The notes under the pieces are model-generated. The model was not told the DNA's origin. It made no database searches and saw nothing but the letters and a program-made list of their open reading frames with translations. Shown here piece by piece: positions 6,777 to 60,149 of a stretch of 64,000 nt of DNA. Position numbers and translations under genes: made by a program. Numbering within the stretch: position 1 is the stretch's first letter; every line of letters begins with the position of its first letter. This DNA comes from a virus (taxonomy: Duplodnaviria; Caudoviricetes): positions 59,920 through 123,919 of the IMG/VR virus record IMGVR_UViG_3300021255_001366, one strand, 5' to 3'.

Positions 6777-6974
6777 CTAGTACCAGCAAATCGTGTCGCT
6801 CAATGAAGAACCTAATGCATCTAATATGCGACTAGCCTCCTTTGGCGATACAGATGATTGACACGTTATAATACTAACCAACCGTTCTTCCGTAATGTTT
6901 GCAAGTGCGACCACTTCCTCTATGGATAAACATTGTTCTTTTAACGTGTCATGGATTAATTTGTTTATGACCAT
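6777..6974 (-). CDS. Small XRE-like helix-turn-helix protein
   Basis: LSIEEVVALANITEERLVSII...SPKEASRILDALG pattern; RBS ggag. Confidence 0.55.
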   Translation of the reverse strand: MVINKLIHDTLKEQCLSIEEVVALANITEERLVSIITCQSSVSPKEASRILDALGSSLSDTICWY

Positions 6975-7009
6975 GATTACTCCTTAATACGCTATACGAC
7001 TATAGCGTC

Positions 7010-7045
7010 AAAAAAAGCCCAAGAGTGATTAGACACCCCTGGGCT
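7010..7045 (-). terminator. Intrinsic terminator
   Basis: agccca/tgggct stem with a poly-A run (U tract on minus), downstream of ORF 7060-7443. Confidence 0.55.
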
Positions 7046-7059
7046 AGTAATCACTCTTG

Positions 7060-7443
7060 TTAATTGCTTCGCATCTGATCCATAAGCTTTTCTACGGCTT
7101 TACGATCTCTATCATCGACAGCCATATCTGCGATGTCTGCTAAGTGCTCAAGCATAATATCTTTGCTATCATTTCTAGAATAACTATTGCCACGAGCATA
7201 ATTATACCCTCTGTTGGCGTAGCTATTTCTTCCATACATATTGCGCATAGAACGACCACGAGCATAACTTCCGTTGTTACCAGAATACATTGCATCTTGA
7301 GACGAGTTCATCTCTTCAATATCCTTGATAATATCCACAAGTTTATCTAACGCCTCAATGTCTTGCATCTGAAGTTTGTCCTTCTTGCCAATGTCGTCAA
7401 TTTCACAATATGCTTTATCGTATATTCTATCTAACGCATCCAT
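7060..7443 (-). CDS. Hypothetical protein with an R/G/Y/N low-complexity centre
   Basis: Contains SYARGRSMRNMYGRNSYANRGYNYARGNSYSR; good RBS. Confidence 0.7.
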   Translation of the reverse strand: MDALDRIYDKAYCEIDDIGKKDKLQMQDIEALDKLVDIIKDIEEMNSSQDAMYSGNNGSYARGRSMRNMYGRNSYANRGYNYARGNSYSRNDSKDIMLEHLADIADMAVDDRDRKAVEKLMDQMRSN

Positions 7444-7457
7444 TGTTAATCTCCTTC

Positions 7458-7892
7458 CTACGCAGTACGCACAATTCTAATATTTGCGTTTTGCATGAGA
7501 ATCGGCTGTGTACTCGTATTTTCTATCGCGATTACATAACAACAGCCACGGGGCACGGCAATCTCGATTGACCGATGAATGTTAAAATATTCTTCAACGG
7601 CCGCAGGAGTAACGATCATTGTACTTGCCGGAATAGGTTCGCCATCGATAGCGAGAGACGCTTGAATCGATTCGACAGTCCCTCCGGTTGGCACAGCAAT
7701 GTTTGCACCGAAGTCAACAACATATCTTGCAAATGTTGCACATGGATTGTTTACAATACCACGCACAGTAAAAATACCAGAGTCATCTCTATGAATAATG
7801 TAACCACGAGTACACGGAGAAGGCTCGTTCGTAAAAGCAGCATTACCACCAGCGATAACTGTCTGCTCTAATGAATTGCTATACTCAGCCAT
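7458..7892 (-). CDS. Hypothetical beta-rich protein, possibly a BclA-C/C1q-like jelly roll
   Basis: Alternating hydrophobic beta-strand pattern, SGIFTVRG and PRGCCY motifs; RBS ggagg. Confidence 0.55.
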   Translation of the reverse strand: MAEYSNSLEQTVIAGGNAAFTNEPSPCTRGYIIHRDDSGIFTVRGIVNNPCATFARYVVDFGANIAVPTGGTVESIQASLAIDGEPIPASTMIVTPAAVEEYFNIHRSIEIAVPRGCCYVIAIENTSTQPILMQNANIRIVRTA

Positions 7893-7907
7893 AATTTACC
7901 TCCATTC

Positions 7908-7941
7908 AAAAAGGTAGCCACCCATAATTAAGGTGGCTACC
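7908..7941 (-). terminator. Intrinsic terminator
   Basis: ggtagccacc/ggtggctacc perfect stem plus an A run. Confidence 0.7.
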
Positions 7942-8002
7942 AAACAAGATCCAAATTGACAATCTCGTAAAACGAGAACATGTTAATTAAATGTAGGGTG
8001 CA

Positions 8003-8719
8003 TTACGCTGCGTATCCACCACAAGAAGTGTAGAAATTTCCGCAGCCACATCCGTTAGGATTTGCAACAACATACGCAGGAATAGGAACTGGAGCAAGAT
8101 ATTTCTCAAGTGCATTTGTCTGCGCCTCGTTATTTGCAATAATAGCAGCGGTCTGTGCGTTCTGTGATGCAGAAAGCTGAGCCATAGTCAGCTGTTGCTG
8201 AAGAGCTGCGATTTGCTCATTCTTTGCATCTATCTTATCTGCACACATCTGATCAAGGATGCGCTGAGTCGAAGCGTTATTTGCCTCAAGTACATCTCTC
8301 AATGCGTTACCAATGGCTGAACGGTCAGCGCAAGCTTCTGTAGCAACAACATACTTTAGGTCGGCTGTTGCTGCGCGATTTTCACAACAACACTGCTGTT
8401 GAGCCATAGCAATTGTATTAATCTGATTAGTCAAATTTGCCAAAGTATTACATCTCGATACTTCAGCGCTGGCGAGTGAATTCTGAATACCGGAAATACC
8501 AGCCATTACAGCAGATTGATCAAAACCGCGCTGTACATCATTAACAACGTACTGGGTTCCACCATTACCTCCACCGTAGCCATTTCCCCATCCGCCATTA
8601 AATGCGAAAAGGAAGAGTAGTATTAACCACCATCCGGAGCCGTTATCTCCAAATCCAAAACCGCCATTACCAGTTACAGCTGCAATATCTGCAGCACTCA
8701 TTTCTGAAGAAAGTGCCAT
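8003..8719 (-). CDS. Conserved phage protein with a Gly-rich N-terminus, one TM segment, a CCC motif and coiled coil
   Basis: GWWLILLFLFAF hydrophobic segment flanked by G/N repeats, QQQCCCEN, C-terminal GCGCG. Probable start MALSSEM follows RBS aaaggag. Confidence 0.75.
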   Translation of the reverse strand: MALSSEMSAADIAAVTGNGGFGFGDNGSGWWLILLFLFAFNGGWGNGYGGGNGGTQYVVNDVQRGFDQSAVMAGISGIQNSLASAEVSRCNTLANLTNQINTIAMAQQQCCCENRAATADLKYVVATEACADRSAIGNALRDVLEANNASTQRILDQMCADKIDAKNEQIAALQQQLTMAQLSASQNAQTAAIIANNEAQTNALEKYLAPVPIPAYVVANPNGCGCGNFYTSCGGYAA

Positions 8720-8793
8720 GATTATTTCTCCTTTCAACAAAAGTCAACATGTTCTATATGTTCATTACGTGCGCACCGTAATTAGAACCTTAA

Positions 8794-9018
8794 CTAAAAA
8801 CGACCACCCATCATGTTTTGAAATTGGGTAGCCGCCTGTGAAAGTTGGTTAAACTGTTGCTGAGACATTTGTCCTGACTGCAACAGTTTTTGAACCTCTT
8901 GTCTAGGATCTCCGTTAAATGAAGACCTAAATTTATTAAATTGTGCCATCATCTGCGCCATTTGATTATTGGGGACAGGAGATTGGCTTCTAAACATATT
9001 AAACAAACTACTTCCCAT
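8794..9018 (-). CDS. Small Q/M-rich hypothetical protein
   Basis: GDPRQEVQKLLQSGQMSQQQFNQL; RBS aggag before MGSS. Confidence 0.65.
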   Translation of the reverse strand: MGSSLFNMFRSQSPVPNNQMAQMMAQFNKFRSSFNGDPRQEVQKLLQSGQMSQQQFNQLSQAATQFQNMMGGRF

Positions 9019-9496
9019 TCTGACGCTCCTTTCTCGTATTATCATTTCTATTCTGTTTCAACTCATTGATAACACGTTCAAATTCGTCCTTAGTAACATA
9101 ACCAAGTTCACGAATTTTTTCTTCAAACTCATCACGTCCAACATACCCGCTCATATCAATATCAGGCATTATTACCTCCGCTTGCTTTTCAGAATCAAGA
9201 GGAACTTCGACAAGCTGATATTTCTTTATTTTTACTGGTATGTTTTCTGATGTTTGAGCAGCGAGATATAAATAATCACGCTCAGAATCAAAAAGAGCCA
9301 TCATTTGACCTGGATCAAGATGATGAGCCATTGCCCCAGCTTCGCCCTGTACCCAAACTATATTTGTAGGGCTTTCTTGTTGGCGTTGTACTGGTGTTTG
9401 GAAAGATTGTTGATAATCTGTTTGCATAGGGTACATTTGTGGTGCCACCATCGGTAATGCACCATACCCAAGATAAGAGGGTTGATTATAAACCAT
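9008..9496 (-). CDS. Hypothetical protein with a Q/P/Y-rich N-terminus (WVQGEAGA motif)
   Basis: 162-aa ORF with RBS aaaggag, part of the 7.0-9.9 kb operon. Confidence 0.65.
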   Translation of the reverse strand: MVYNQPSYLGYGALPMVAPQMYPMQTDYQQSFQTPVQRQQESPTNIVWVQGEAGAMAHHLDPGQMMALFDSERDYLYLAAQTSENIPVKIKKYQLVEVPLDSEKQAEVIMPDIDMSGYVGRDEFEEKIRELGYVTKDEFERVINELKQNRNDNTRKERQNGK

Positions 9497-12651: not shown

Positions 12652-13683
12652 TTATAAATCCCCCAAAGATTTCTGTTCAACGTTTTTAATTCCGTTCTCG
12701 TCAAAATACTTACCAATATTTTCATCAGCAGATATATCTGTGTACAAATTCACCATGTCAGCAGACTCCCAGTTCACGATATCTTGAATAACATTTGTTG
12801 GGATATTATTCTTTGCTAACATAGTGGTAAAGTAATGTCTCATAGAGTGCCAGTAAAAATCCTTACCAAGAAATCTAGTAAAACTATCTTTCCATCCATC
12901 AAGAGTCTCAGCGGCTATTGGTTGCGTCGCGTCGTCTTTACTAGGAAACAACCATTCACTCTCAATACCATTGTCTTTTCTATACTTCATCCATAAGTCA
13001 AGATACGGTTGAAATTGTTTCTTAAGAACATATACTTGAATTCTCTTACCTTGCGATCCACGTCCTTTTGTCTGGATTTTCTCCGGCGTCTTCCATAAAG
13101 AACCAAACAATACATTCTCATCATTAAAATATGAAACCTTAAATCTAGGCAGTTCAGCCTTACGTCTACCAGAATACATTGCAAGTGCAAGACAACACGC
13201 TTGACGATACTTTTCTTTTTCTACAAGATAATCAAGCAACGCCTGTAGCTCGTCATCTTCAAACACAGTCTTTTCCCGCACCGCAACGTTTACAGGAGAC
13301 TCAATCTTTTTAATAACACTTCTATAACCTTCGTACTCTTCTTCTTCATCAAGAATGTTCTCAATATAATTCGAGAGAGAAGAAATAACAGACTTTACCC
13401 TACGAACACGCTTTGGACTCCATCCCCATTCATTAATTGCATGATTTTGAAATCTTGCAAATTCACGCTTCGTAATCTCCGTAAATCTCTTATTATCATT
13501 GTGTTCAAGGTTATACACAAAGAATATCTTTAAATCAGACTCATACTGACTAATTGTATTTGGTGATCTATCAATAGATTTCAAATAATCAAGAAAATCT
13601 TTTGTTAACTCCTTATTTTCAGGAAGAACCTTAGAAAGAGATTCTTCGCTTGTAATATTATTGTAAACAGTCGATCTTCCCAT
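12652..13683 (-). CDS. Tyrosine recombinase/integrase
   Basis: SAM-like N-terminal domain (RSPNTISQYESDL), SGRRKAEL (Arg), HSMRH and catalytic Tyr in MVNLY. Confidence 0.9.
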   Translation of the reverse strand: MGRSTVYNNITSEESLSKVLPENKELTKDFLDYLKSIDRSPNTISQYESDLKIFFVYNLEHNDNKRFTEITKREFARFQNHAINEWGWSPKRVRRVKSVISSLSNYIENILDEEEEYEGYRSVIKKIESPVNVAVREKTVFEDDELQALLDYLVEKEKYRQACCLALAMYSGRRKAELPRFKVSYFNDENVLFGSLWKTPEKIQTKGRGSQGKRIQVYVLKKQFQPYLDLWMKYRKDNGIESEWLFPSKDDATQPIAAETLDGWKDSFTRFLGKDFYWHSMRHYFTTMLAKNNIPTNVIQDIVNWESADMVNLYTDISADENIGKYFDENGIKNVEQKSLGDL

Positions 13684-50839: not shown

Positions 50840-51798
50840 ATGACAATCAAGATGTTAAAGGAAATGATCAAGGACTTGCCGGATGATGAAAGATTATATC
50901 TTGATAATGGTTTTGACGTGTTCGATGGAGACGAAGTGTTAGATCTATGTTGTCTTGAATCTCCACAAGGAGAGCATAGAGTGTTAGCGAGAACAAGAGA
51001 TGATTTTGATACATCGGTCGTAATAGACGGAATGCTTGAATGCGCAAGCGAAACAAATATGAATGAGCAAGACTTTTGGATTTATGTTGACGCACTTGGT
51101 TACAAGCCAGAGGATTTCGAGAATGAACAGTGGGCAAGGGAACAACTTAAGAACTATGGTTTACTTTAGAAAGGAGTAAATATGGAACTGTACTACGCAA
51201 TTATGAACATCGTTGATTATCTTGCTAAGAACGGAAACGATTCAAAACTGTATGAAATCCTTGATACGCTGCTTGCCATGACGGATCACACGATTGAGGA
51301 TATTGCAGATGCAAACGATTGTGGTGGATGCTCCACTTGGAATGAGTTGGTAGATGGAATAAGGAAACTGTTTGAAACTGGGGAAAGGAGTTGAGCGTAT
51401 GACAGTAAAAGAATTCTTAGATCGCATAGAAGATTATAACACTATTATTACAGTAAAGGCGGTGATTGATGATGAATGGAAAGTAGTTAGCAGTACCCCT
51501 GCTACTATGATGGGCGTTCCAGATGATGTAATGGAAAGCGAGATTATATCGTGGGGAGTATATGATGGGAAGATAATGATAAGAATATAAGGGAGGTAAT
51601 GATATGAACGGTGAATTATTTGCAAGAGTGATTATAAGCGAAACAGAACGTAAGGCAATTGAAAATGCAATAGTCGTTATGAATGAAGTTGCAGATGCTT
51701 ATAGAAAGACCGGATTGGAAAGTGTTCGGTTCTTAATTGACGACTTAAACGATGGTATCTCGGCACTCAAGGGAGTGCTCGAAGGATTGTATTACTAA
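50840..51798 (+). other. Four small hypothetical early genes (50840-51169, 51182-51394, ~51399-51590, 51604-51798)
   Basis: Consecutive ORFs, each with an RBS. Confidence 0.6.
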
Positions 51799-51829
51799 TC
51801 AAAGTAAGATTTGAAAGGAGATATTAAAA

Positions 51830-52459
51830 ATGAGTTTGTGGACTTATATAGATGGAACAATCACAGTAGAGCCAATGGGAAGAACACAAGCTGAGAAAAG
51901 ATATATTCTTGAAACGGTTTTAAATCATCTTCCTTTAGTGACCGGGTCTGAGAAAGATATGAATGTATATATCATTCAAAAGAACGGAACTAATTCCTCC
52001 AGTTCGTGCGATGAATATGGAGAACATACAAACAATCTCGTTAACCGATATGGATGTCATAATCGTGAAACAGGATGGCTTTATATTCAAAGCGAATATG
52101 TCTTGGTGGTTAACGGAAATTTTCGCGATAGGGAATTTGATGAGACATTTCGTGAATTTATGAACTGGCTCTGTAGATTGGCTAAACGAGTTTCAATTAA
52201 CGATATCTTGGTAAGGATTCAGGGTCTGGACAAACAGTATATCATAAACGATAACTGCGGTTGGGATTCTCCTTATTCACAAATGAAAGAGTACCCTAGT
52301 TGGTGTGAAGAGTCGAACGGCGAGCCTTGTTGGGCGGAACACTTAATGTGGGATAGGGCTAAGGATAGTGATTATCCAATGTTGCTTGCTTACAAGTATT
52401 TCGCTGATCCAGAAAATGATGCTGAAGTAGAACGCAGAAGAGAATTTAAAAACAAATAA
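51830..52459 (+). CDS. Hypothetical protein (cassette 1)
   Basis: 209 aa, MSLWTYIDG...LPLVTGSEKDM...GNFRDR. Confidence 0.7.
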   Translation: MSLWTYIDGTITVEPMGRTQAEKRYILETVLNHLPLVTGSEKDMNVYIIQKNGTNSSSSCDEYGEHTNNLVNRYGCHNRETGWLYIQSEYVLVVNGNFRDREFDETFREFMNWLCRLAKRVSINDILVRIQGLDKQYIINDNCGWDSPYSQMKEYPSWCEESNGEPCWAEHLMWDRAKDSDYPMLLAYKYFADPENDAEVERRREFKNK

Positions 52460-52493
52460 AAACAACATTTTATAAAAAAAGGAGATAATAAAA

Positions 52494-52652
52494 ATGGAAG
52501 AGAAAAAGAATTTTGTAACGGCAGAGGGAACATTCAAGTACTATGATGAAGTACCCGCACTTATTGTTGAAGGGAAGAATTTTGAAAAGACATTCTACGA
52601 TAATGAAGCAAGAGAGTTGTTTAAGACACTAATTGGCATAACAAATAAATAA
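52494..52652 (+). CDS. Small hypothetical protein (cassette 2, 52 aa)
   Basis: Read by eye: RBS aaggag, MEEKKNFVTAEG...GITNK*. Confidence 0.6.
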   Translation: MEEKKNFVTAEGTFKYYDEVPALIVEGKNFEKTFYDNEARELFKTLIGITNK

Positions 52653-52678
52653 AAAACGAATATTTAAGGAGGTAAGAA

Positions 52679-52849
52679 ATGACTAACAAAGAAGCGGTGG
52701 AAAACAATAACGTTTTATTGTTTGAAGCAGAAGATTGTACCGATCCGATGTGGGAATATGTAATAGAAATACTGAAAGAAAATATTCCAGGATTCAATGT
52801 TGGATATGGTAATGGAAATTGGATGGCATTTGCTATACCAAAGGAATAA
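52679..52849 (+). CDS. Small hypothetical protein (cassette 3, 56 aa)
   Basis: Read by eye: RBS aggagg, MTNKEAVEN...AIPKE*. Confidence 0.6.
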   Translation: MTNKEAVENNNVLLFEAEDCTDPMWEYVIEILKENIPGFNVGYGNGNWMAFAIPKE

Positions 52850-52886
52850 AACGAACTTTAATGGAGAAAGTGAGGTAGAAAAATAA

Positions 52887-53117
52887 ATGTATATATATGG
52901 TATCTTATTAAATAATTTAATAACGCATAATTTTTATACAAACGATAGCTATCCTCCAGAAGAATATATGAAATTCTATGATGAGCATGTTGATGAAGTT
53001 GAAGACTTGTTTTGTGATCATATACCGTTGTCGATGGAAGAATATATCAAGGATATATATAGTAATTATGGGCTTACGACTATGACTATTTGTACTGAAG
53101 AAAAAGAAATCAAATAA
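52887..53117 (+). CDS. Hypothetical protein (cassette 4)
   Basis: In the ORF track; bounded by repeats. Confidence 0.55.
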   Translation: MYIYGILLNNLITHNFYTNDSYPPEEYMKFYDEHVDEVEDLFCDHIPLSMEEYIKDIYSNYGLTTMTICTEEKEIK

Positions 53118-53144
53118 ACAAAATTTTTGAAGGAGGTAAATAAT

Positions 53145-53372
53145 ATGGCAAAGTACAGAGTTTGTGTAGAAAGTATTGATTATCTTTATATTGATATTGA
53201 AGCAGATACACCGGAAGAGGCAAAGGAATTTGCTGACGAGTATGTAGATGGTGGAGATTTTCATCACAACGCAACAGATGTTGGTTGGAGATATACTGAA
53301 ACAATAAAACTTAAAGATGATGCAATAGTAGATTATAACATAAAGAAATTTATGAAAGAATTAAAAAGATAA
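53145..53372 (+). CDS. DpnD/PcfM-like small protein (cassette 5)
   Basis: KYRVCVES...IDIEADTPEEAKEFA. Confidence 0.55.
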   Translation: MAKYRVCVESIDYLYIDIEADTPEEAKEFADEYVDGGDFHHNATDVGWRYTETIKLKDDAIVDYNIKKFMKELKR

Positions 53373-53399
53373 AACAAGGTTTTTAAGGGAGGCGGTTGT

Positions 53400-53678
53400 A
53401 TGGATAGAGATTATGGGTTTTATGAATTAGGACTTGGAACTCGTACTGATGAGACAAACCCTGATTATGTGTGTAGAGGATTGTGGGATTCTGAATACAG
53501 CATAGTGATTAAGGCAGATCATTCACCAGATTTTGAAGAAGCCGAGGAGTTTATAAGGGAAGATTTAAAACGGCTTAAATATGACGGTGTGTATTCAATA
53601 ACAGAAATCACAGAGGACGAGGTATATAGTTTCTTTGATACGAGTAATATAGATAATTGGAAAGTGTTGAGAAGATAA
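53400..53678 (+). CDS. Hypothetical protein (cassette 6)
   Basis: ORF with an RBS, bounded by repeats. Confidence 0.6.
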   Translation: MDRDYGFYELGLGTRTDETNPDYVCRGLWDSEYSIVIKADHSPDFEEAEEFIREDLKRLKYDGVYSITEITEDEVYSFFDTSNIDNWKVLRR

Positions 53679-53705
53679 AATAATGTTTTTAAGGGAGATG
53701 ATTAT

Positions 53706-54020
53706 ATGGTTATAGACAAAAAATTCTTTGATGAATGTTTCTGTCCTGTACAAGGAATTGGAAGAGTTTGTTTAAGAGGAGATAAGAGCATTCCTAAATT
53801 TCTTGAAGATTATGGTAGAGAAAAAGACGGAAACGAGTACGATTCGAGTTGCTTTAGTATAGACATTATGATTGAAAATGAAAAGCCTATTGGCGGAGTG
53901 ATCAATTATATGGCAGAACACGAGATGTGGAGCGAAATTCCTTGTGATAATTATATAGAAGCGTTCGATTATTATAAGGCAAATACAACTGACAGAACAT
54001 GGAAAGAAACCATAAAATAA
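53706..54020 (+). CDS. Hypothetical protein (cassette 7)
   Basis: ORF with an RBS, bounded by repeats. Confidence 0.6.
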   Translation: MVIDKKFFDECFCPVQGIGRVCLRGDKSIPKFLEDYGREKDGNEYDSSCFSIDIMIENEKPIGGVINYMAEHEMWSEIPCDNYIEAFDYYKANTTDRTWKETIK

Positions 54021-54042
54021 CTTTTTCAAAGGAGGTGGCGAT

Positions 54043-54264
54043 ATGTTTAACACATTATCTAATGGAGATTATTGGTATTACGAATGGGAAGATGGTGGTA
54101 AGGGAATTGTGAAAGCAGACAGTTCTGAAGAAGCAGAACGCAAAGTAAGAGAATCGTATAAGAAACATGGATATGAAGATACATCTGAAGAAGTATATAT
54201 CTATGAAATATGGCAGAAACCTTTTGAAGATTCGCCGGATGTAATAGAAATATGTGAACAATAA
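54043..54264 (+). CDS. Hypothetical protein (cassette 8)
   Basis: GIVKADSSEEAERKV; bounded by repeats. Confidence 0.6.
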   Translation: MFNTLSNGDYWYYEWEDGGKGIVKADSSEEAERKVRESYKKHGYEDTSEEVYIYEIWQKPFEDSPDVIEICEQ

Positions 54265-54283
54265 AAGCAGAGTTTGAAGGGAG

Positions 54284-54568
54284 ATGAATGGAATGTATAA
54301 AGAGGAAGTTGCTTTAAGATTTGGGTATCCTTATGAACGAATTGATGAAGCAAAAAAACTTGAAAGGTTACTTGATAGTAAGGAAATTAAATTTCTATTC
54401 TATGAAAGTAACGGATATTGGAAGCATGAATTTGTGGTTAGGCGGTCTGCTGGTTATACATGGAATGAGATAATGGGACTTATTAACTCTGTATATGCAC
54501 CCTCAAATTATAAAAAAGAAAAAACGTGGTTTAACAATGATGAAGAGGAAATTGTATTTTGTAACTAA
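54284..54568 (+). CDS. Hypothetical protein (cassette 9)
   Basis: ORF with an RBS, bounded by repeats. Confidence 0.6.
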   Translation: MNGMYKEEVALRFGYPYERIDEAKKLERLLDSKEIKFLFYESNGYWKHEFVVRRSAGYTWNEIMGLINSVYAPSNYKKEKTWFNNDEEEIVFCN

Positions 54569-54638
54569 TAAAAGTTGAGTTTGATTGAGATTGAACCGGA
54601 CGAGTTGTATGAACTCTTAGAAGGAAAGGAGTAAAAAT

Positions 54639-56211
54639 ATGGTCAAAGATAAGATGATTGGTGTTGTTATTAGACATGACTTTAATGATTATGAGATTAT
54701 GCTTACGGATTTTACGAAGGAAGATGACAAAAAGTTATGGGATATAATTTCGGATTACTCAGATGATGGTATTTGCGGTCAGCGAGGTGATCGACATTTA
54801 ACATTAGAGGATTGCAACGTAGCCTGGTTGGAAGAAACATGGCAACCGATGTACAGAAATACAGCAAATCATTTTGATATTGTTGATATCTCAATAATCT
54901 TTAAGAGATATGTTGAGATTAACGGAACTCATAAAGGATTTGAGGAGTATGTTAATAGCGGCTTTATGAATGGAAATGAAAAGGAATATGAGGAGGTATA
55001 AAGATGGAGAGATATATTTCAGATTCAAAGCCAGTCTACACAAGAGAAGTAGCCAAAGACATTGTTGAGTTGTTCGAGGACTTGCTTGACAAACACAACA
55101 TCGACATTCCGGACGAAGACAGAGAATGCGGAGATGATGACCAAGCGAGATTGTTCGGTACAACTTGGGACACTCTAGTGACAGATGTAGAGTGTATGAT
55201 TATTGAACTGATGGAAAGAACGGGAACAGACTACAAGGCAGACAAGTACAACGAAGGCAATTGGATTAATTAGGAGGTGTTCATATGGATTTAATGCTTA
55301 AGAATATGTTAGGTCAGTTACAGGTGTTGACACAGTGCGGTGGTATCAGAAGTTACTACGACAACGAAGCTCCAGAGGAATATCAGTATAAGGATTCTAC
55401 AAAGGTACATAACTTCTTGAGTATTTGCGAAGAAGTTGCTGGTGAATTATTAGACGAGGATATTAATCAGGCAGAATGGTTAATCACACAGTTCTGCTTA
55501 GGAGTATTATTTGAAGAGGCACACAACCATCGCTTCCCTTGGCTTGAAGAGGTTACACATCTCTGCTTAGAGTATATGGACATTGATCTCTCAAACACAG
55601 AGAGAATTGATGAAATTCCCGAAGAGATTATAGAGATTGTCAAAAAAGAGATTGACAAGGAAGAAAAAGAGGTAAACGAAACAAAGACATACAGAGTGAG
55701 CGTAGGAATTACACAGACCGGATACTACGATGTAGAAGCAACATCTAAAGAGGAGGCGAAAGAAAAGATAAAGAGAATGACATACGAAGATTTAATCGAA
55801 GACCTTGAAGATGTAGACATTGTCAACGGAGAAGTGCTTGATGTTTGGACAAACGACGATGACGAGTAAGGAGGAATAAAAAATATGGAATATACTTTTG
55901 TTACAGTAAAGCAGATGGCGGATTGGTTGAGAGCATGTAACAACGGAGACGAACTTGGTTTTACAAATGATGAGAAAGAAGACATCGAGGTAAACGGAGA
56001 ACCTACCGGATGGTACGGAGTAACAATTGTTGATCTGTTTGATTATCCAACAGTGGTGTTTGGATATTATGGAGGAGGCGCTATTTGTTGCGGTAGTATA
56101 AACGAATCGTTTGAAGATATGATTATTACATTCTTCAATCGTGAGTTTGACATCAAGTTAACTGAAGACTCGTTGGTATGTGTTGATGCGAATGATTATA
56201 GAAAGGAGTAA
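54639..56211 (+). other. Four acidic hypothetical genes (54639-55001, 55004-55273, 55285-55869, 55885-56211)
   Basis: Consecutive ORFs with RBS; 55285-55869 ends in a DpnD/PcfM-like module. Confidence 0.6.
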
Positions 56212-56737: not shown

Positions 56738-57583
56738 ATGAACAACGTAAAGCAGACCAAGAAAAAATTTGAGGAACTCAAGGGGCTTATCTTAGAGAAA
56801 GCAAAGATTAAGAAAGGAACGGCAACAGACAATGTAAAGCTTGGCAACATGGGATCATGGGCAATGTTGTTTGGTAGTTGTGAATGGTACATCCCGGAAC
56901 TTGATGTAACTGTGAAGGGAACTTGCGGAGAGCATTGTGGAGGGTGTTTTAATCCGCAGAATCCCAAGTGTTCTACTTGTTACGTAGCTAAGTCGTACGT
57001 TAAGTACACTAAGCGAAACGCAGATGGTACTGTTGGAGATATTCAGAAGAACAAATGCTCTGTGAAACTTGGTCACGCTTACAGAACTATCGCAATGACA
57101 ATGTTTAGAAAGGATTTACTTCTTTCACTTGATGCGCAGCTGACAAAGATGAAAAAGAAGTTGAATGTTGTTCGCATCAATGAGAGTGGAGAGTTCACTT
57201 GCTACGAAGATCTGGCAATGTGGTGCGAGTTAGCAAAAAGACATCCTGAAACAATCTTTTATGTATATACAAAGAACTATAAAGCTGTACGAAAAGCGTT
57301 GATTAACGCAATTGTTCCGAGCAATCTCTTCATTAACATCAGTGTTTGGCATCAGTTCGGTATTGAAGAGTACCTTGAAATGAAGGATCATCCACAGATT
57401 AGAGCATTCGTACTTGTTGATGATGAGTGGTCAAAGGAAAAGTACTACTCTAAGGGAGTTGAAATTACGAGTATGTGCGGTGCTTATGATGAGAATGGAA
57501 AGATGAATCACGCAGTAACTTGTGATAAGTGCAAAAAATGTTTTAGCAAAAACAATAAATGTACTGGATGTTACGAACACTAA
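56738..57583 (+). CDS. Gp88-like (radical-SAM-related) Cys-rich protein
   Basis: GTCGEHC...CYVAK, RINESGEF, FYVYTK, NLFINIS and CDKCKKC. Confidence 0.65.
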   Translation: MNNVKQTKKKFEELKGLILEKAKIKKGTATDNVKLGNMGSWAMLFGSCEWYIPELDVTVKGTCGEHCGGCFNPQNPKCSTCYVAKSYVKYTKRNADGTVGDIQKNKCSVKLGHAYRTIAMTMFRKDLLLSLDAQLTKMKKKLNVVRINESGEFTCYEDLAMWCELAKRHPETIFYVYTKNYKAVRKALINAIVPSNLFINISVWHQFGIEEYLEMKDHPQIRAFVLVDDEWSKEKYYSKGVEITSMCGAYDENGKMNHAVTCDKCKKCFSKNNKCTGCYEH

Positions 57584-58592: not shown

Positions 58593-59120
58593 GTGTTTAA
58601 TTTGAAAATAGGCATATATGATATTATAAATAATCCATTACCTGAATTATTGTTAGAAAGAGAAATTACAGTAAAGAAAAGCGATTTTGAAACATGCTCA
58701 AATATAGTAAATCTGCTTAATAAAGAGTTAAAAATGAATAAACTTCACTCTGAACACATGTATGCTTTGGCGTTAACAATGGCTAATGAACCTAGGGGAA
58801 TTCTATTGTGCGGTGTAGGAAATAGCGAAGAAGTTCTTTTTAACAGCAGAGGATTAGCAACAGGCTTGTTACTGCTTGGAGCTGAACAGTTTATGGTCTT
58901 TCATAATCATCCAGGGTGTTCAAAGATTATATCAGATGGAGATAAAGATATCACAGAACGTATGGAAACAATAGGGAATTTATTGCAAATTAGATTCATT
59001 GATCACCTAATGATTACAAAAGGATATTATGCATCATGTAAAGATGTGTGTGATGATGATATCTCATATGATTTGGTTAAGGACATCTTGAATAAATGGC
59101 AAAATGGGGAGGTGTTGTAA
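58593..59120 (+). CDS. radC: RadC-family JAB domain protein
   Basis: EHMYALAL, FHNHPG..IS..D and FIDHLMI. Confidence 0.85.
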   Translation: MFNLKIGIYDIINNPLPELLLEREITVKKSDFETCSNIVNLLNKELKMNKLHSEHMYALALTMANEPRGILLCGVGNSEEVLFNSRGLATGLLLLGAEQFMVFHNHPGCSKIISDGDKDITERMETIGNLLQIRFIDHLMITKGYYASCKDVCDDDISYDLVKDILNKWQNGEVL

Positions 59121-60149
59121 ATGAATGGAAGACTAGAAAATAGTTTACAAATTCATAAGAAAATCGAAAATGAAATTCAGAATCTTCCGGAGTTTGTACT
59201 TGAGTGGTACTTTTATCTTAAGGCAAATAAAAAATCTGCTACAACGTGTCTTGATTATGTTCGTAAAGTTCGATTGTTTTTATCAACAATTAATGGAGAC
59301 ATTATAAATATCAAGCCTGACGATATTAAATCAAGTCATGTTACAAAATATTTCATTGACATTCAAACAAAAAGTGTGGTTGTCAACGGAAAAGAAACGA
59401 TTGAGTACACTTCGGATTCATATAGACAAACAGTGTGGTCATGCTTAAATAATCTGTTTGATTTTCTCGTAAGACAGGGATATATCGAATATAATCATAT
59501 TAAAAGGAGTAAAATTGAACGACCTAAGAATAAAGATTTAGCGAGAATAAACAGAAACAGAGTGCTTCTTGATGATGACGATTTTAGAGATATTATTGAA
59601 GCCGTTCGTAATGGTGCTGGATCTAATAAAGCAAAGGGATATCAGTATAGGTATCGCAACAGAGATTTATGTATGCTTAACATATTCATGTCTACTGGTA
59701 TAAGAAAGGGGGCATTAAGAGCAATCAATATTGAAGATATAGATATGGAGAAACGCACACTTACTGTTGTTGATAAGGGAGATATTATTCATGAATATGG
59801 ATTGTCTCAGATGACGATTGACTTTATTAACGCATGGCTAAAAGATAGATATTGGTTAAGTGGACATGATACCAATGCTTTATTTGTATCAAAAGAAGGA
59901 AATAGAATTTCGCAAAATGGAATTGACAAGATTGTTGCGAAGTATTCACAAGAAGCATTGGGGCATAAGATTAGTCCCCATAAATTGAGATCTGGATTCA
60001 TCAGCATAGTGCAAAGTAAAACGCATGATATTGAATTTGCCCGTAGAGCTGCCGGACATGCAAATGTTACAACAACACAGCGATATATTGTTACTGATAA
60101 TACAGAGAGTTTACAGGCAAGTGAAATGATTGCAGATATTCTTGACTAA
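59121..60149 (+). CDS. XerC/D-like tyrosine recombinase
   Basis: RD..MLNIFMSTGIRK, VVDKG, ALFVS, SPHKLRS and GHANVTTTQRY. Confidence 0.9.
   Translation: MNGRLENSLQIHKKIENEIQNLPEFVLEWYFYLKANKKSATTCLDYVRKVRLFLSTINGDIINIKPDDIKSSHVTKYFIDIQTKSVVVNGKETIEYTSDSYRQTVWSCLNNLFDFLVRQGYIEYNHIKRSKIERPKNKDLARINRNRVLLDDDDFRDIIEAVRNGAGSNKAKGYQYRYRNRDLCMLNIFMSTGIRKGALRAINIEDIDMEKRTLTVVDKGDIIHEYGLSQMTIDFINAWLKDRYWLSGHDTNALFVSKEGNRISQNGIDKIVAKYSQEALGHKISPHKLRSGFISIVQSKTHDIEFARRAAGHANVTTTQRYIVTDNTESLQASEMIADILD

What the first reader, a model, noticed from the sequence alone, without database searches (positions are those of the whole stretch)
51798..54632. Integron-like single-gene cassette array in a phage early region
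Seen: ten consecutive gene junctions each carry an ~18-bp imperfect palindrome with a 6-bp variable spacer. The copies are ATCAAA-GTAAGA-TTTGAA (51798), ATAAAA-ACAACA-TTTTAT (52456), AAAAAA-CGAATA-TTTAAG (52651), AATAAA-ACGAAC-TTTAAT (52845), ATAAAC-AAAATT-TTTGAA (53114), ATAAAA-CAAGGT-TTTTAA (53369), ATAAAA-TAATGT-TTTTAA (53675), ATAAAA-TAACTT-TTTCAA (54012), ATAAAA-GCAGAG-TTTGAA (54261) and ATAAAA-GTTGAG-TTTGAT (54568). Each overlaps the upstream stop codon, and all but the last run straight into the next RBS. They enclose nine unrelated single ORFs that look more AT-rich than their neighbours. I did not see the motif at flanking junctions. After the last copy comes what reads like an orphan gene tail (LIEIEPDELYELLEGKE*), as expected at a breakpoint. 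Known: tyrosine-recombinase core sites are inverted arms around a 6-8 bp spacer. Inference: these are recombination sites for capture or shuffling of promoterless accessory (possibly anti-defence) genes, perhaps by the XerC-like recombinase at 59121.
Basis: partly seen in the sequence, partly recalled or inferred. Interest (0 to 1): 0.88.

Follow-up and report, generated by a model that had tools for sequence, protein, structure and literature searches.

The report
Address-labelled gene-swap joints in a phage
A short AT-rich motif sits between the small accessory genes of this SPbeta-like gut phage; related phages keep each copy, with its own six-base centre, in the same order while the genes between copies differ, so the copies mark where single genes are swapped.

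Summary
All ten sites are where stated. The motif (ATAAAA-N6-TTT-N-A, then the ribosome-binding site at fixed distance) occurs 23 times on the + strand, against 3.7 in shuffles. A second array lies outside the window.

The "variable spacer" is not variable between phages. In 13 further contigs, each copy keeps its own six-base centre in one fixed order, including in phages whose portal proteins are only 35-38% identical. The genes between copies are mostly unrelated. Genes shared at 88-100% DNA identity end on the motifs.

The phage is SPbeta-like. The same dyad is enriched 12-32-fold in cultured SPbeta, phi3T, Goe14 and SPbetaL4, where homology blocks also tend to end on it.

Best reading: these are fixed joints at which single promoterless genes are exchanged, most likely by short-homology recombination. 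It is not an integron. There is no attC-like fold and no integron-type integrase, and the sites stay in place while the genes move. Tyrosine-recombinase action is neither shown nor excluded. A conserved DNA-binding protein may also use the dyad.

This scan found the same motif family earlier on two other genomes (e1-5759587, e1-5824111).

The parts
51798..51815 (+). Joint J1 (left arm variant ATCAAA); abuts the stop of ORF 51604-51798
   Evidence: The same centre stands first among the shared joints of G001, L012 and L013.
52456..52473 (+). Joint J2; stop codon inside the left arm
   Evidence: the same centre in 8 other loci, same rank
52651..52668 (+). Joint J3
52845..52862 (+). Joint J4, a near-copy of J3 with a 5-nt centre in the better register
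53114..53131 (+). Joint J5 (left arm ATAAAC)
53369..53386 (+). Joint J6; used as the search pattern for the metagenome scan
53675..53692 (+). Joint J7; left end of a 95.8% identical shared cassette
54012..54029 (+). Joint J8; the upstream stop lies in the centre
54261..54278 (+). Joint J9; left end of a cassette shared at 99.7-100% with other phages
54568..54585 (+). Joint J10; last copy, with no SD behind it in this genome
   Evidence: In L014 and G002 it is followed by a normal SD and ORF.
51830..54568 (+). Nine cargo ORFs between the joints: 51830-52459, 52494-52652, 52679-52849, 52887-53117, 53145-53372, 53400-53678, 53706-54020, 54043-54264 and 54293-54568
   Evidence: The only family hit is a weak DpnD/PcfM match for 54043-54264.
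54581..54636 (+). Remnant 3' end of a gene whose 5' part was replaced; the joint lies at the TTT of J10
   Evidence: X6 record 26 and its loose end keep the frame open upstream
59121..60149 (+). Xer-like tyrosine recombinase with the catalytic residues intact. It is only a candidate; no link to the joints is shown.

Best explanation
The ten sites belong to about 20 junction elements of a 124-kb SPbeta-like temperate siphovirus from ruminant gut. Each element has the same layout: the stop codon of the upstream gene, ATAAAA, a six-base centre, TTT-N-A, and the ribosome-binding site of the next gene. The elements form a fixed scaffold. Every copy has its own centre (an 'address'), and related phages carry the same addresses in the same order. 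The promoterless small genes between them are exchangeable cargo.

Shown: cargo differs between phages slot by slot. Recently shared cargo ends on the elements. Cargo can also move to another slot without taking the address with it.

Inferred mechanism: co-infecting or prophage relatives recombine within the 15-25 nt of identity that a joint offers. Identical centres give the longest match, which keeps exchange in register. Different centres on neighbouring joints hinder deletion between them. Rarer crossovers in the arms alone move cargo between slots. The enzymes are probably general phage or host recombination functions; the phage encodes an AAA_24/Sak4-like protein and a PD-(D/E)XK exonuclease. 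A dedicated integrase is not required by the data. Why the arms are conserved from Bacillus SPbeta to rumen phages is not explained by exchange alone.
For: Enrichment and coding-strand bias. Fixed logo and fixed spacing to the SD over 116 sites. Thirteen other contigs all keep the canonical order of up to 11 addresses; the chance of this under random order is about 1e-34. The phages are distant: portal 35-38% and capsid 59-65% amino-acid identity. Array 2 shows the same collinearity. Slots hold different cargo; for example the J6|J7 slot has 8 cargo sets in 9 loci. Same-slot sharing runs from core to core at 95.8-99.7% identity, and cross-slot sharing is bounded by the centres at 81-92%. Seventeen of 34 segment ends lie within -5..+30 nt of a core. 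Contigs from other samples share single cassettes at 97-100% in otherwise unlike contexts. In cultured SPbeta, phi3T and Goe14 the dyad is enriched 12-32-fold, and block ends fall on it 6/48, 9/52 and 11/60 times against about 1.2 expected. Recombination genes are present.
Against: Fifteen to 25 nt is very short for homologous recombination, and no enzyme was tested. Exchange alone does not explain two things: why the centres stay identical across phages this divergent, and why the arms are conserved across the whole SPbeta-like group. A at +16, which neither the stop codon nor the SD explains, points to dyad recognition by a protein. Some boundaries lie at the SD, at the start codon or inside ORFs rather than in a core. 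Only 10-18% of block ends in the cultured phages are on dyads. The metagenome loci were retrieved with J6, so its presence in them is by selection.
Confidence: 0.55

Rival explanations
1. The dyad is first of all a binding site for a conserved phage DNA-binding protein. It would be an operator-like or silencing site at gene ends, comparable to stoperators. One candidate is the ParB/DndB-like second repressor SroE/YopQ, whose targets are unknown. Recombination at the sites would then be a by-product of their conservation.
For: Partial dyad symmetry that the stop codon and SD do not explain: A at +16 in 93% of sites. In SPbeta the arms are fully symmetric and the distance to the SD varies, so the element is not simply part of the ribosome site. 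The dyad is conserved from Bacillus and Staphylococcus phages to rumen phages. This phage has the SroE and SroF homologues directly after array 2. The literature reports SroE as a second repressor with unknown mode of action (10.1101/2025.11.27.690993).
Against: A common binder does not explain why each copy keeps a different centre that is conserved between phages. The known SroF/MrpR boxes are different sequences (SPBRE, and the 26-bp phi3T box) and are not enriched here. The ten MrpR ChAP-seq peaks were assigned to promoter regions, not to these gene-end dyads (PMC10516654). No binding data exist for the dyad.
Confidence: 0.25
2. The sites are core sites of a phage tyrosine recombinase, and the six-base centres are overlap regions. 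Sites with different centres cannot recombine with each other, whereas same-address sites in two phages can. That would be a natural form of recombinase-mediated cassette exchange.
For: The geometry fits: two short inverted arms around exactly 6 nt. Same-address exchange looks like the more recent and more common process. Cross-slot boundaries fall exactly at the edges of the centre. Tandem same-address flanks occur around single genes, as expected from insertion of a circle. An Xer-like recombinase with intact catalytic residues lies a few kb downstream of array 1 in G000, G001 and G002.
Against: The arms are only 5-6 bp and the right arm is degenerate, whereas typical recombinase arms are 9-13 bp. 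Homologues of the recombinase in 80 other loci have no such sites. SPbeta has the dyads, but its YopP aligns with Lys where this recombinase has the second catalytic Arg, and shows only generic similarity. Some boundaries lie outside the core. Every boundary pattern seen is equally expected from crossovers in the only shared letters. The genome has three other recombinase-fold genes with other likely roles.
Confidence: 0.12
3. The motif has no role of its own. It is the usual look of a stop codon, an AT-rich spacer and a ribosome-binding site in an AT-rich Firmicute phage, or it is only translational punctuation.
For: The left arm contains the stop codon, and the right arm sits just before the SD at fixed distance. 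U-rich tracts upstream of an SD can aid initiation (general knowledge).
Against: Six-fold enrichment over dinucleotide shuffles. None to two hits in 80 bacterial loci, many of them AT-rich and SD-using. Tight junctions elsewhere in the same genome lack it. Centres are conserved copy by copy in fixed order across distant phages. In SPbeta the dyad stands at variable distance from the SD and also between convergent genes.
Confidence: 0.05

Closest known systems
PeSLs (promoter-early stem-loops) of T4-type phages (PMC2839356, PMC4122927)
   Same: Both are repeated intergenic motifs flanking single ORFan genes in plastic regions. In both, insertions, deletions and replacements between related phages end on the motifs. 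Exchange is attributed to homologous recombination between copies, with no dedicated integrase found.
   Different: PeSLs are longer composite elements with a sigma-70 promoter and a stable terminator hairpin. These joints have neither and instead combine a stop codon and a ribosome site. As far as I read, PeSL copies are not described as carrying slot-specific centres kept in order across distant phages. The hosts and phage types also differ (Firmicute SPbeta-like siphoviruses).
Integron gene cassettes (attC, attI, IntI)
   Same: Arrays of promoterless, mostly single-gene units of unrelated function, bounded by imperfect palindromes.
   Different: attC sites are 57-141 bp, fold as single strands and travel with their gene (general knowledge). 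Here the sites are 15-18 nt, do not fold and stay in place while genes move. No IntI-type integrase is present.
Heterospecific lox/FRT variants used for recombinase-mediated cassette exchange (engineered systems; from general knowledge)
   Same: The same arms with different 6-8 bp spacers define addresses. A cassette between two different addresses can be swapped with another that has the same flanks, and neighbouring sites do not delete against each other.
   Different: That is an engineered use of Cre or Flp with 13-bp arms. No recombinase is linked to these sites, the arms are much shorter, and cargo also moves between addresses.
Stoperators of mycobacteriophage L5 (from general knowledge)
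   Same: Many copies of a short site in short intergenic spaces within co-directional operons, often at stop codons.
   Different: Stoperators are one asymmetric 13-bp consensus bound by the repressor. These sites have a variable but address-conserved centre, and no binder is known.
SPBRE / SroF (MrpR, YopR) boxes of SPbeta-family phages (PMC10516654; 10.1101/2025.11.27.690993)
   Same: They occur in the same phage group, are AT-rich repeated intergenic elements, and are bound by a recombinase-fold protein. This phage encodes the homologue.
   Different: The sequence differs: a palindrome with ATACA/TGTAT arms in SPbeta and a 26-bp asymmetric box in phi3T. There are about 10 copies at promoters, all alike. 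SPBRE is not enriched in this phage. SPbeta carries the junction dyad in addition.
Linker or boundary sequences proposed for modular exchange in lambdoid phages (Susskind and Botstein 1978; HK620 boundary sequences; from general knowledge)
   Same: The idea that short conserved sequences at gene boundaries guide exchange of functional modules between phages.
   Different: Those were sporadic and disputed. Here there is a dense, quantifiable scaffold with address-specific centres.

Membership tests
Integron | IntI-type integrase (tyrosine recombinase with the integron-specific insertion) | tested here: not met
   NCBIfam: the best models are XerS, XerA and XerC, all far below their cut-offs; no integron-integrase equivalog is reached. 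PDB relatives are XerA, XerD and XerH.
Integron | attC site: 57-141 bp imperfect palindrome that folds as a single strand, with the conserved R-box core | tested here: not met
   The conserved core is 15-18 nt of A/T only. Predicted folds are 0 to -2.9 kcal/mol, mostly no better than shuffles.
Integron | The recombination site travels with its cassette | tested here: not met
   The same gene families occur with different flanking centres, and centres keep a fixed order in 13 of 13 loci.
PeSL-type regulatory cassette | Sigma-70 early promoter plus stable stem-loop terminator in each copy | tested here: not met
   No promoter-like or terminator-like site at any joint: 22 promoter-like sites in 10 kb against 32 expected, none at joints. 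No stable hairpin.
PeSL-type regulatory cassette | Gene insertion, deletion and replacement between relatives ends on the repeated motif | tested here: met
Tyrosine-recombinase core site | Two inverted binding arms (usually 9-13 bp) around a 6-8 bp overlap region | tested here: inconclusive
   The spacer is exactly 6 nt, but the arms are 5-6 bp, and only 4-5 of 6 positions are complementary across 116 sites.
Tyrosine-recombinase core site | Binding and strand exchange by a cognate recombinase | not testable with these tools
   The only data are co-location of an active-looking Xer-like gene in three phages and absence of the motif near 80 homologues.
SPBRE / SroF box | Sequence match to the box bound by MrpR/SroF | tested here: not met
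   SPBRE was derived from three ChAP targets. It has 7 near-matches here against 11 for the control. The phi3T box is unrelated.
Stoperator-like operator | Many copies in short intergenic spaces of co-directional operons, at stop codons | tested here: met
Stoperator-like operator | Bound by the phage repressor, blocking transcription | not testable with these tools
   No binding or expression data. No RNA run that holds the stretch was listed.

The most novel reading that the evidence does not exclude
The joints are a natural cassette-exchange system. A phage-encoded enzyme (a tyrosine recombinase or an unknown nuclease) acts on the dyad, and the six-base centre works as an address that restricts exchange to the same slot in another phage. 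SPbeta-like phages would then share an ordered, addressable pool of accessory and counter-defence genes.
Probability: 0.12. Interest if true: 0.95.

Novelty: new variant of a known kind. Interest (0 to 1): 0.75.

Why it matters
Phages renew their small accessory genes, many of them counter-defence genes, very quickly, and how they do so without wrecking neighbouring genes is poorly understood. Here a dense scaffold of 15-nt joints, each with its own conserved address, survives across phages that have diverged almost beyond DNA recognition, while the genes between them turn over. That is a concrete and quantifiable rule for single-gene exchange. The same dyad occurs in SPbeta and phi3T, which are genetically tractable in Bacillus subtilis and already known to form hybrids. 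The mechanism can therefore be tested directly with marked crosses and dyad mutants. The joints also give a practical handle for delimiting accessory genes in metagenomic phage contigs, and possibly for slot-specific engineering of large Firmicute phages.

Tried and rejected
- DNA search of 51000-56000 against INPHARED phages: one weak 186-bp hit, no use.
- The search for related loci with the 209-aa ORF found nothing. With a GP88 alignment the chosen peptide patterns were poor and returned only L002.
- RNA level: no RNA holder was listed for the stretch, so expression could not be examined.
- Only contigs, not raw reads, could be laid. Excised circles and rare in-sample rearrangements could therefore not be sought. 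Parts of the stretch without cover in X2, X3, X4 and X6 say nothing.
- Hairpin idea (RNA or attC-like single strand): rejected.
- Promoter or terminator in the joints: rejected.
- MrpR/SroF operator idea: the SPBRE I derived from three SPbeta ChAP targets, and the published phi3T box, do not match and SPBRE is not enriched here.
- Co-occurrence of recombinase and motif: 80 loci with homologues (up to 36% identity) lack the motif. This is weak evidence, because these are distant homologues.
- Paralogy of cargo (an array made by tandem duplication): only two weak pairs by blastp; not pursued with profiles.
- Inverted repeats around the fibre-tip genes noted by another reader: my repeat scan of genome 33500-40000 gave nothing clear; not followed further.
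- The published phi3Ts replacement ends at 102,694, and a dyad lies at 102,689-102,706 in record PP526178. I could not verify that the two coordinate systems agree.
Full report
**Setting.** The window is the second half of a 123,919-bp contig with a roughly 107-bp terminal repeat and 37.7% G+C. The + strand gene block that holds the finding runs from about window 42500 to the end and continues into genome 1-35000. The structural genes lie on the - strand.

The phage is SPbeta-like. Genome 6909-8108 is a homologue of YopQ/SroE (25% identity, E 3e-17). Genome 8101-9036 is a homologue of the recombinase-fold master repressor YopR/MrpR/SroF: Pfam MrpR_N_CB scores 40.8 bits against a cut-off of 27, and the PDB relatives are 8A0A, 8BJ6 and 9RD5. 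The capsid protein is about 25% identical to those of large Bacillus and Lactococcus siphoviruses. Runs that hold pieces of the stretch are ruminant and other animal gut metagenomes.

**The observation.** Each overlaps or abuts the upstream stop codon, and nine are followed by an SD and a start codon.
- The pattern occurs 23 times on the + strand, against 3.7 +/- 1.5 in dinucleotide shuffles.
- A strict 23-nt form with the SD gives 8, 11 and 7 hits in this phage and two relatives. All are on the coding strand. There are none for the reversed control and none in a 4.1-Mb MAG.
- Eighty bacterial and archaeal loci, many AT-rich and SD-using, gave 0-2 hits each. The motif is therefore not the ordinary look of an AT-rich junction.
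- Other junctions in the same genome are tight overlaps without it, and gap lengths are bimodal with a second peak at 25-35 nt.
- G+C drops by 5-10 points inside the array.
- A second array of about eight joints lies at genome 3708-6711, outside the window.

**Anatomy.** Over 116 junction instances from this phage and its relatives the logo is A-ATAAAA, six variable letters (the third is A in 78%), TTT-N-A-W, then R-GGAG-G at fixed distance. A at +16 (93%) is explained by neither the stop codon nor the SD, and it completes a partial dyad (T.AAA / TTT.A). The outermost and third pairs are complementary in only about 40% of sites. Predicted RNA folds are negligible. There are no promoter-like or terminator-like sites at the joints.

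**The key result.** Two IMG/VR relatives were found through the neighbouring GP88 gene (L001 and L002 = G003 and G001). A third (L004 = G002) was found through the letters of one joint. G002 shows no blastn similarity to the window. The portal proteins of all three are only 35-38% identical to this phage's, and the capsid proteins of G001 and G002 59-65%.

Despite this, the joints recur with the same six-base centres in the same order. Seven of the window's ten centres are collinear in G001 and six in G002. Array 2 behaves the same way. The conserved block is exactly ATAAAA plus the centre plus TTT. The upstream letters are unrelated C-termini, and the letters just downstream vary.

A metagenome scan with J6 returned 13 loci, one of them a duplicate of G001. 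Together with the IMG/VR relatives, all 13 loci that hold two or more canonical centres keep them (up to 11) in the one canonical order. If order were random the chance would be about 1e-34.

The ORFs between equal centres are mostly unrelated and differ in number and length. The J6|J7 slot holds 8 different cargo sets in 9 loci, and the J2|J3 slot holds 7 in 7.

**Boundaries at nucleotide resolution.** Two kinds of sharing appear.
- *Same slot.* Identity runs from the first base of one core to the TTT of the next, with unlike flanks. The J9-ORF-J10 cassette is 99.7% identical to L014, and 100% identical to a contig from the probable source sample. The J7-ORF-J8 cassette is 95.8% identical to L016.
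- *Different slot.* The shared unit is the right arm, SD, ORF, stop and left arm, and the flanking centres differ. The 209-aa ORF sits between J1 and J2 here but between the J2-type and J3-type joints in L015, at 88.5% identity. The 75-aa ORF (91%) lies on different sides of J6 in this phage and in G001.

Same-slot pairs are more alike (95.8-99.7%; one pair 89%) than cross-slot pairs (81-92%), so in-register exchange looks like the faster process.

Seventeen of 34 ends of shared segments lie within -5..+30 nt of a core, where at most about 12% is expected. Some ends lie at the SD or start codon, or inside ORFs.

In a contig of run X6 the same frame continues upstream as an intact ORF. The joint in this genome sits on the TTT of J10, at a six-letter match to the usual right arm.

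**Extension to cultured phages.** The same dyad (ATAAAA-N6-TTTTA) is enriched in SPbeta itself (27 forward hits against 2 for the control). It is also enriched in phi3T (24), Goe14 (24), SPbetaL4 (32) and a Staphylococcus SPbeta-like phage (12), with controls of 1-2. In SPbeta it stands at gene ends, with a stop codon in or just before the left arm. The SD follows at variable distance, and several copies lie between what look like convergent stops.

Ends of homology blocks between SPbeta, phi3T and Goe14 fall within 25 nt of a dyad 6/48, 9/52 and 11/60 times, against 1.1-1.3 expected (P <= 0.0005). One 99.97% block begins and ends on dyads. I found no description of this dyad in the SPbeta papers I read.

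**What it is not.** It is not an integron. There is no IntI-type enzyme and no attC-like site, and the sites do not travel with the genes.

It is not a PeSL in the strict sense, because it has no promoter and no terminator hairpin.

It is not a known SroF/MrpR box. The element shared by three MrpR ChAP targets in SPbeta is a different palindrome with about eight copies, and it is not enriched here. The phi3T box is a 26-bp asymmetric sequence bound by a monomer.

**Mechanism.** The joints are exchange boundaries; that part is well supported. How the exchange happens is inferred.

Short-homology recombination is the simplest reading. The joints are the only letters shared between otherwise unlike neighbours. 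Equal centres give 21-24 matching letters, while unequal ones give about 15 split into two arms. The phage encodes an AAA_24/Sak4-like protein and a PD-(D/E)XK exonuclease. PeSL exchange in T4-type phages is attributed to the same kind of process.

Every boundary pattern seen would also arise if a tyrosine recombinase cut at the edges of the six-base centre. An Xer-like enzyme with intact catalytic residues sits a few kb downstream of array 1 in three phages. Tandem equal-address flanks around single genes resemble circle insertion.

Against that reading, the arms are very short. Homologues elsewhere lack the motif. In the alignment, SPbeta's YopP has Lys at the position of the second catalytic Arg. 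The genome also has three more recombinase-fold genes with other likely roles.

Conservation of the arms from Bacillus to rumen phages, together with the dyad symmetry, suggests that a conserved protein also reads the site. SroE/YopQ is a ParB/DndB-like second repressor with unknown targets, and it is one candidate. The persistence of the centres is best explained by constant turnover. Cargo observed today arrived through intact joints, and a double crossover at outer joints restores inner ones.

**Cargo.** Of 114 array ORFs from 13 loci, only four match a Pfam family: an HNH endonuclease, a Lar-type restriction-alleviation protein, a DpnD/PcfM-like protein (window 54043-54264) and an IBR zinc finger. 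This fits an accessory, partly counter-defence pool but does not prove one.

**Earlier notes of this scan.** Two follow-up reports on other genomes describe the same motif family with the same reading. I reached the collinearity and boundary results from my own calls. The additions here are the second array, the SroE/SroF context, the exclusion of SPBRE, the read-level cassette sharing, and the presence and breakpoint association of the dyad in cultured SPbeta-family phages.

Noticed in passing
L102:3708-6730 (genome coordinates, outside the window): A second array of about eight joints with their own centres. These are collinear in G001 and G002, again with unrelated cargo. One 52-aa ORF has its homologue in a different slot in G002.
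   Followed up: yes
L102:6909-9036: Homologues of the SPbeta lysogeny genes yopQ (sroE, ParB/DndB-like) and yopR (mrpR/sroF, a recombinase-fold repressor) lie directly downstream of array 2. The phage therefore belongs to the SPbeta-like group and is probably temperate.
   Followed up: yes
NC_001884 (L104-L111), PP526178, OL580764, OQ921344, NC_029119: The dyad ATAAAA-N6-TTTTA is enriched 12-32-fold in cultured SPbeta-family phages and marks a significant share of their homology-block ends. It is not annotated in the SPbeta record, and I found it in none of the papers I read.
   Followed up: yes
window 59121-60149, window 12652-13683 (-), L103:13806-15011, L102:8101-9036: The genome has four tyrosine-recombinase-fold genes: an Xer-like one with intact catalytic residues, a second Xer-like one in the structural block, a classic phage integrase, and the MrpR-like repressor. 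The substrates of the first two are unknown.
   Followed up: partly
window 51830-52459: A 209-aa ORF with no family is conserved at 52% amino-acid identity in G002 and 88% DNA identity in L015. It occupies a different position relative to the joints in each phage. A second 209-aa family (F24) occurs in L011, L013 and L016.
   Followed up: partly
window 58602-59120: A RadC-like JAB-domain gene lies directly upstream of, and abutting, the Xer-like recombinase gene.
   Followed up: no
L102:2513-3700: An RNA-ligase-like gene (PHA02142 OB-fold plus RNA_ligase domain) immediately precedes array 2.
   Followed up: no
array ORFs of L007-L020 (alignment A3): Among 114 cargo ORFs, one matches Lar (restriction alleviation) and one an HNH endonuclease. 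The rest are ORFans.
   Followed up: partly
PP526178 102689-102706: A dyad lies where the published 's' fragment replacement of phi3Ts is said to end (102,694 in the authors' phi3T coordinates). Whether the two coordinate systems agree was not verified.
   Followed up: partly
window 56738-57583: The GP88-family gene is 82-86% identical in amino acids to those of G003 and G001, although the portal proteins are only 35-38% identical. The early region has been exchanged more recently than the structural genes.
   Followed up: partly
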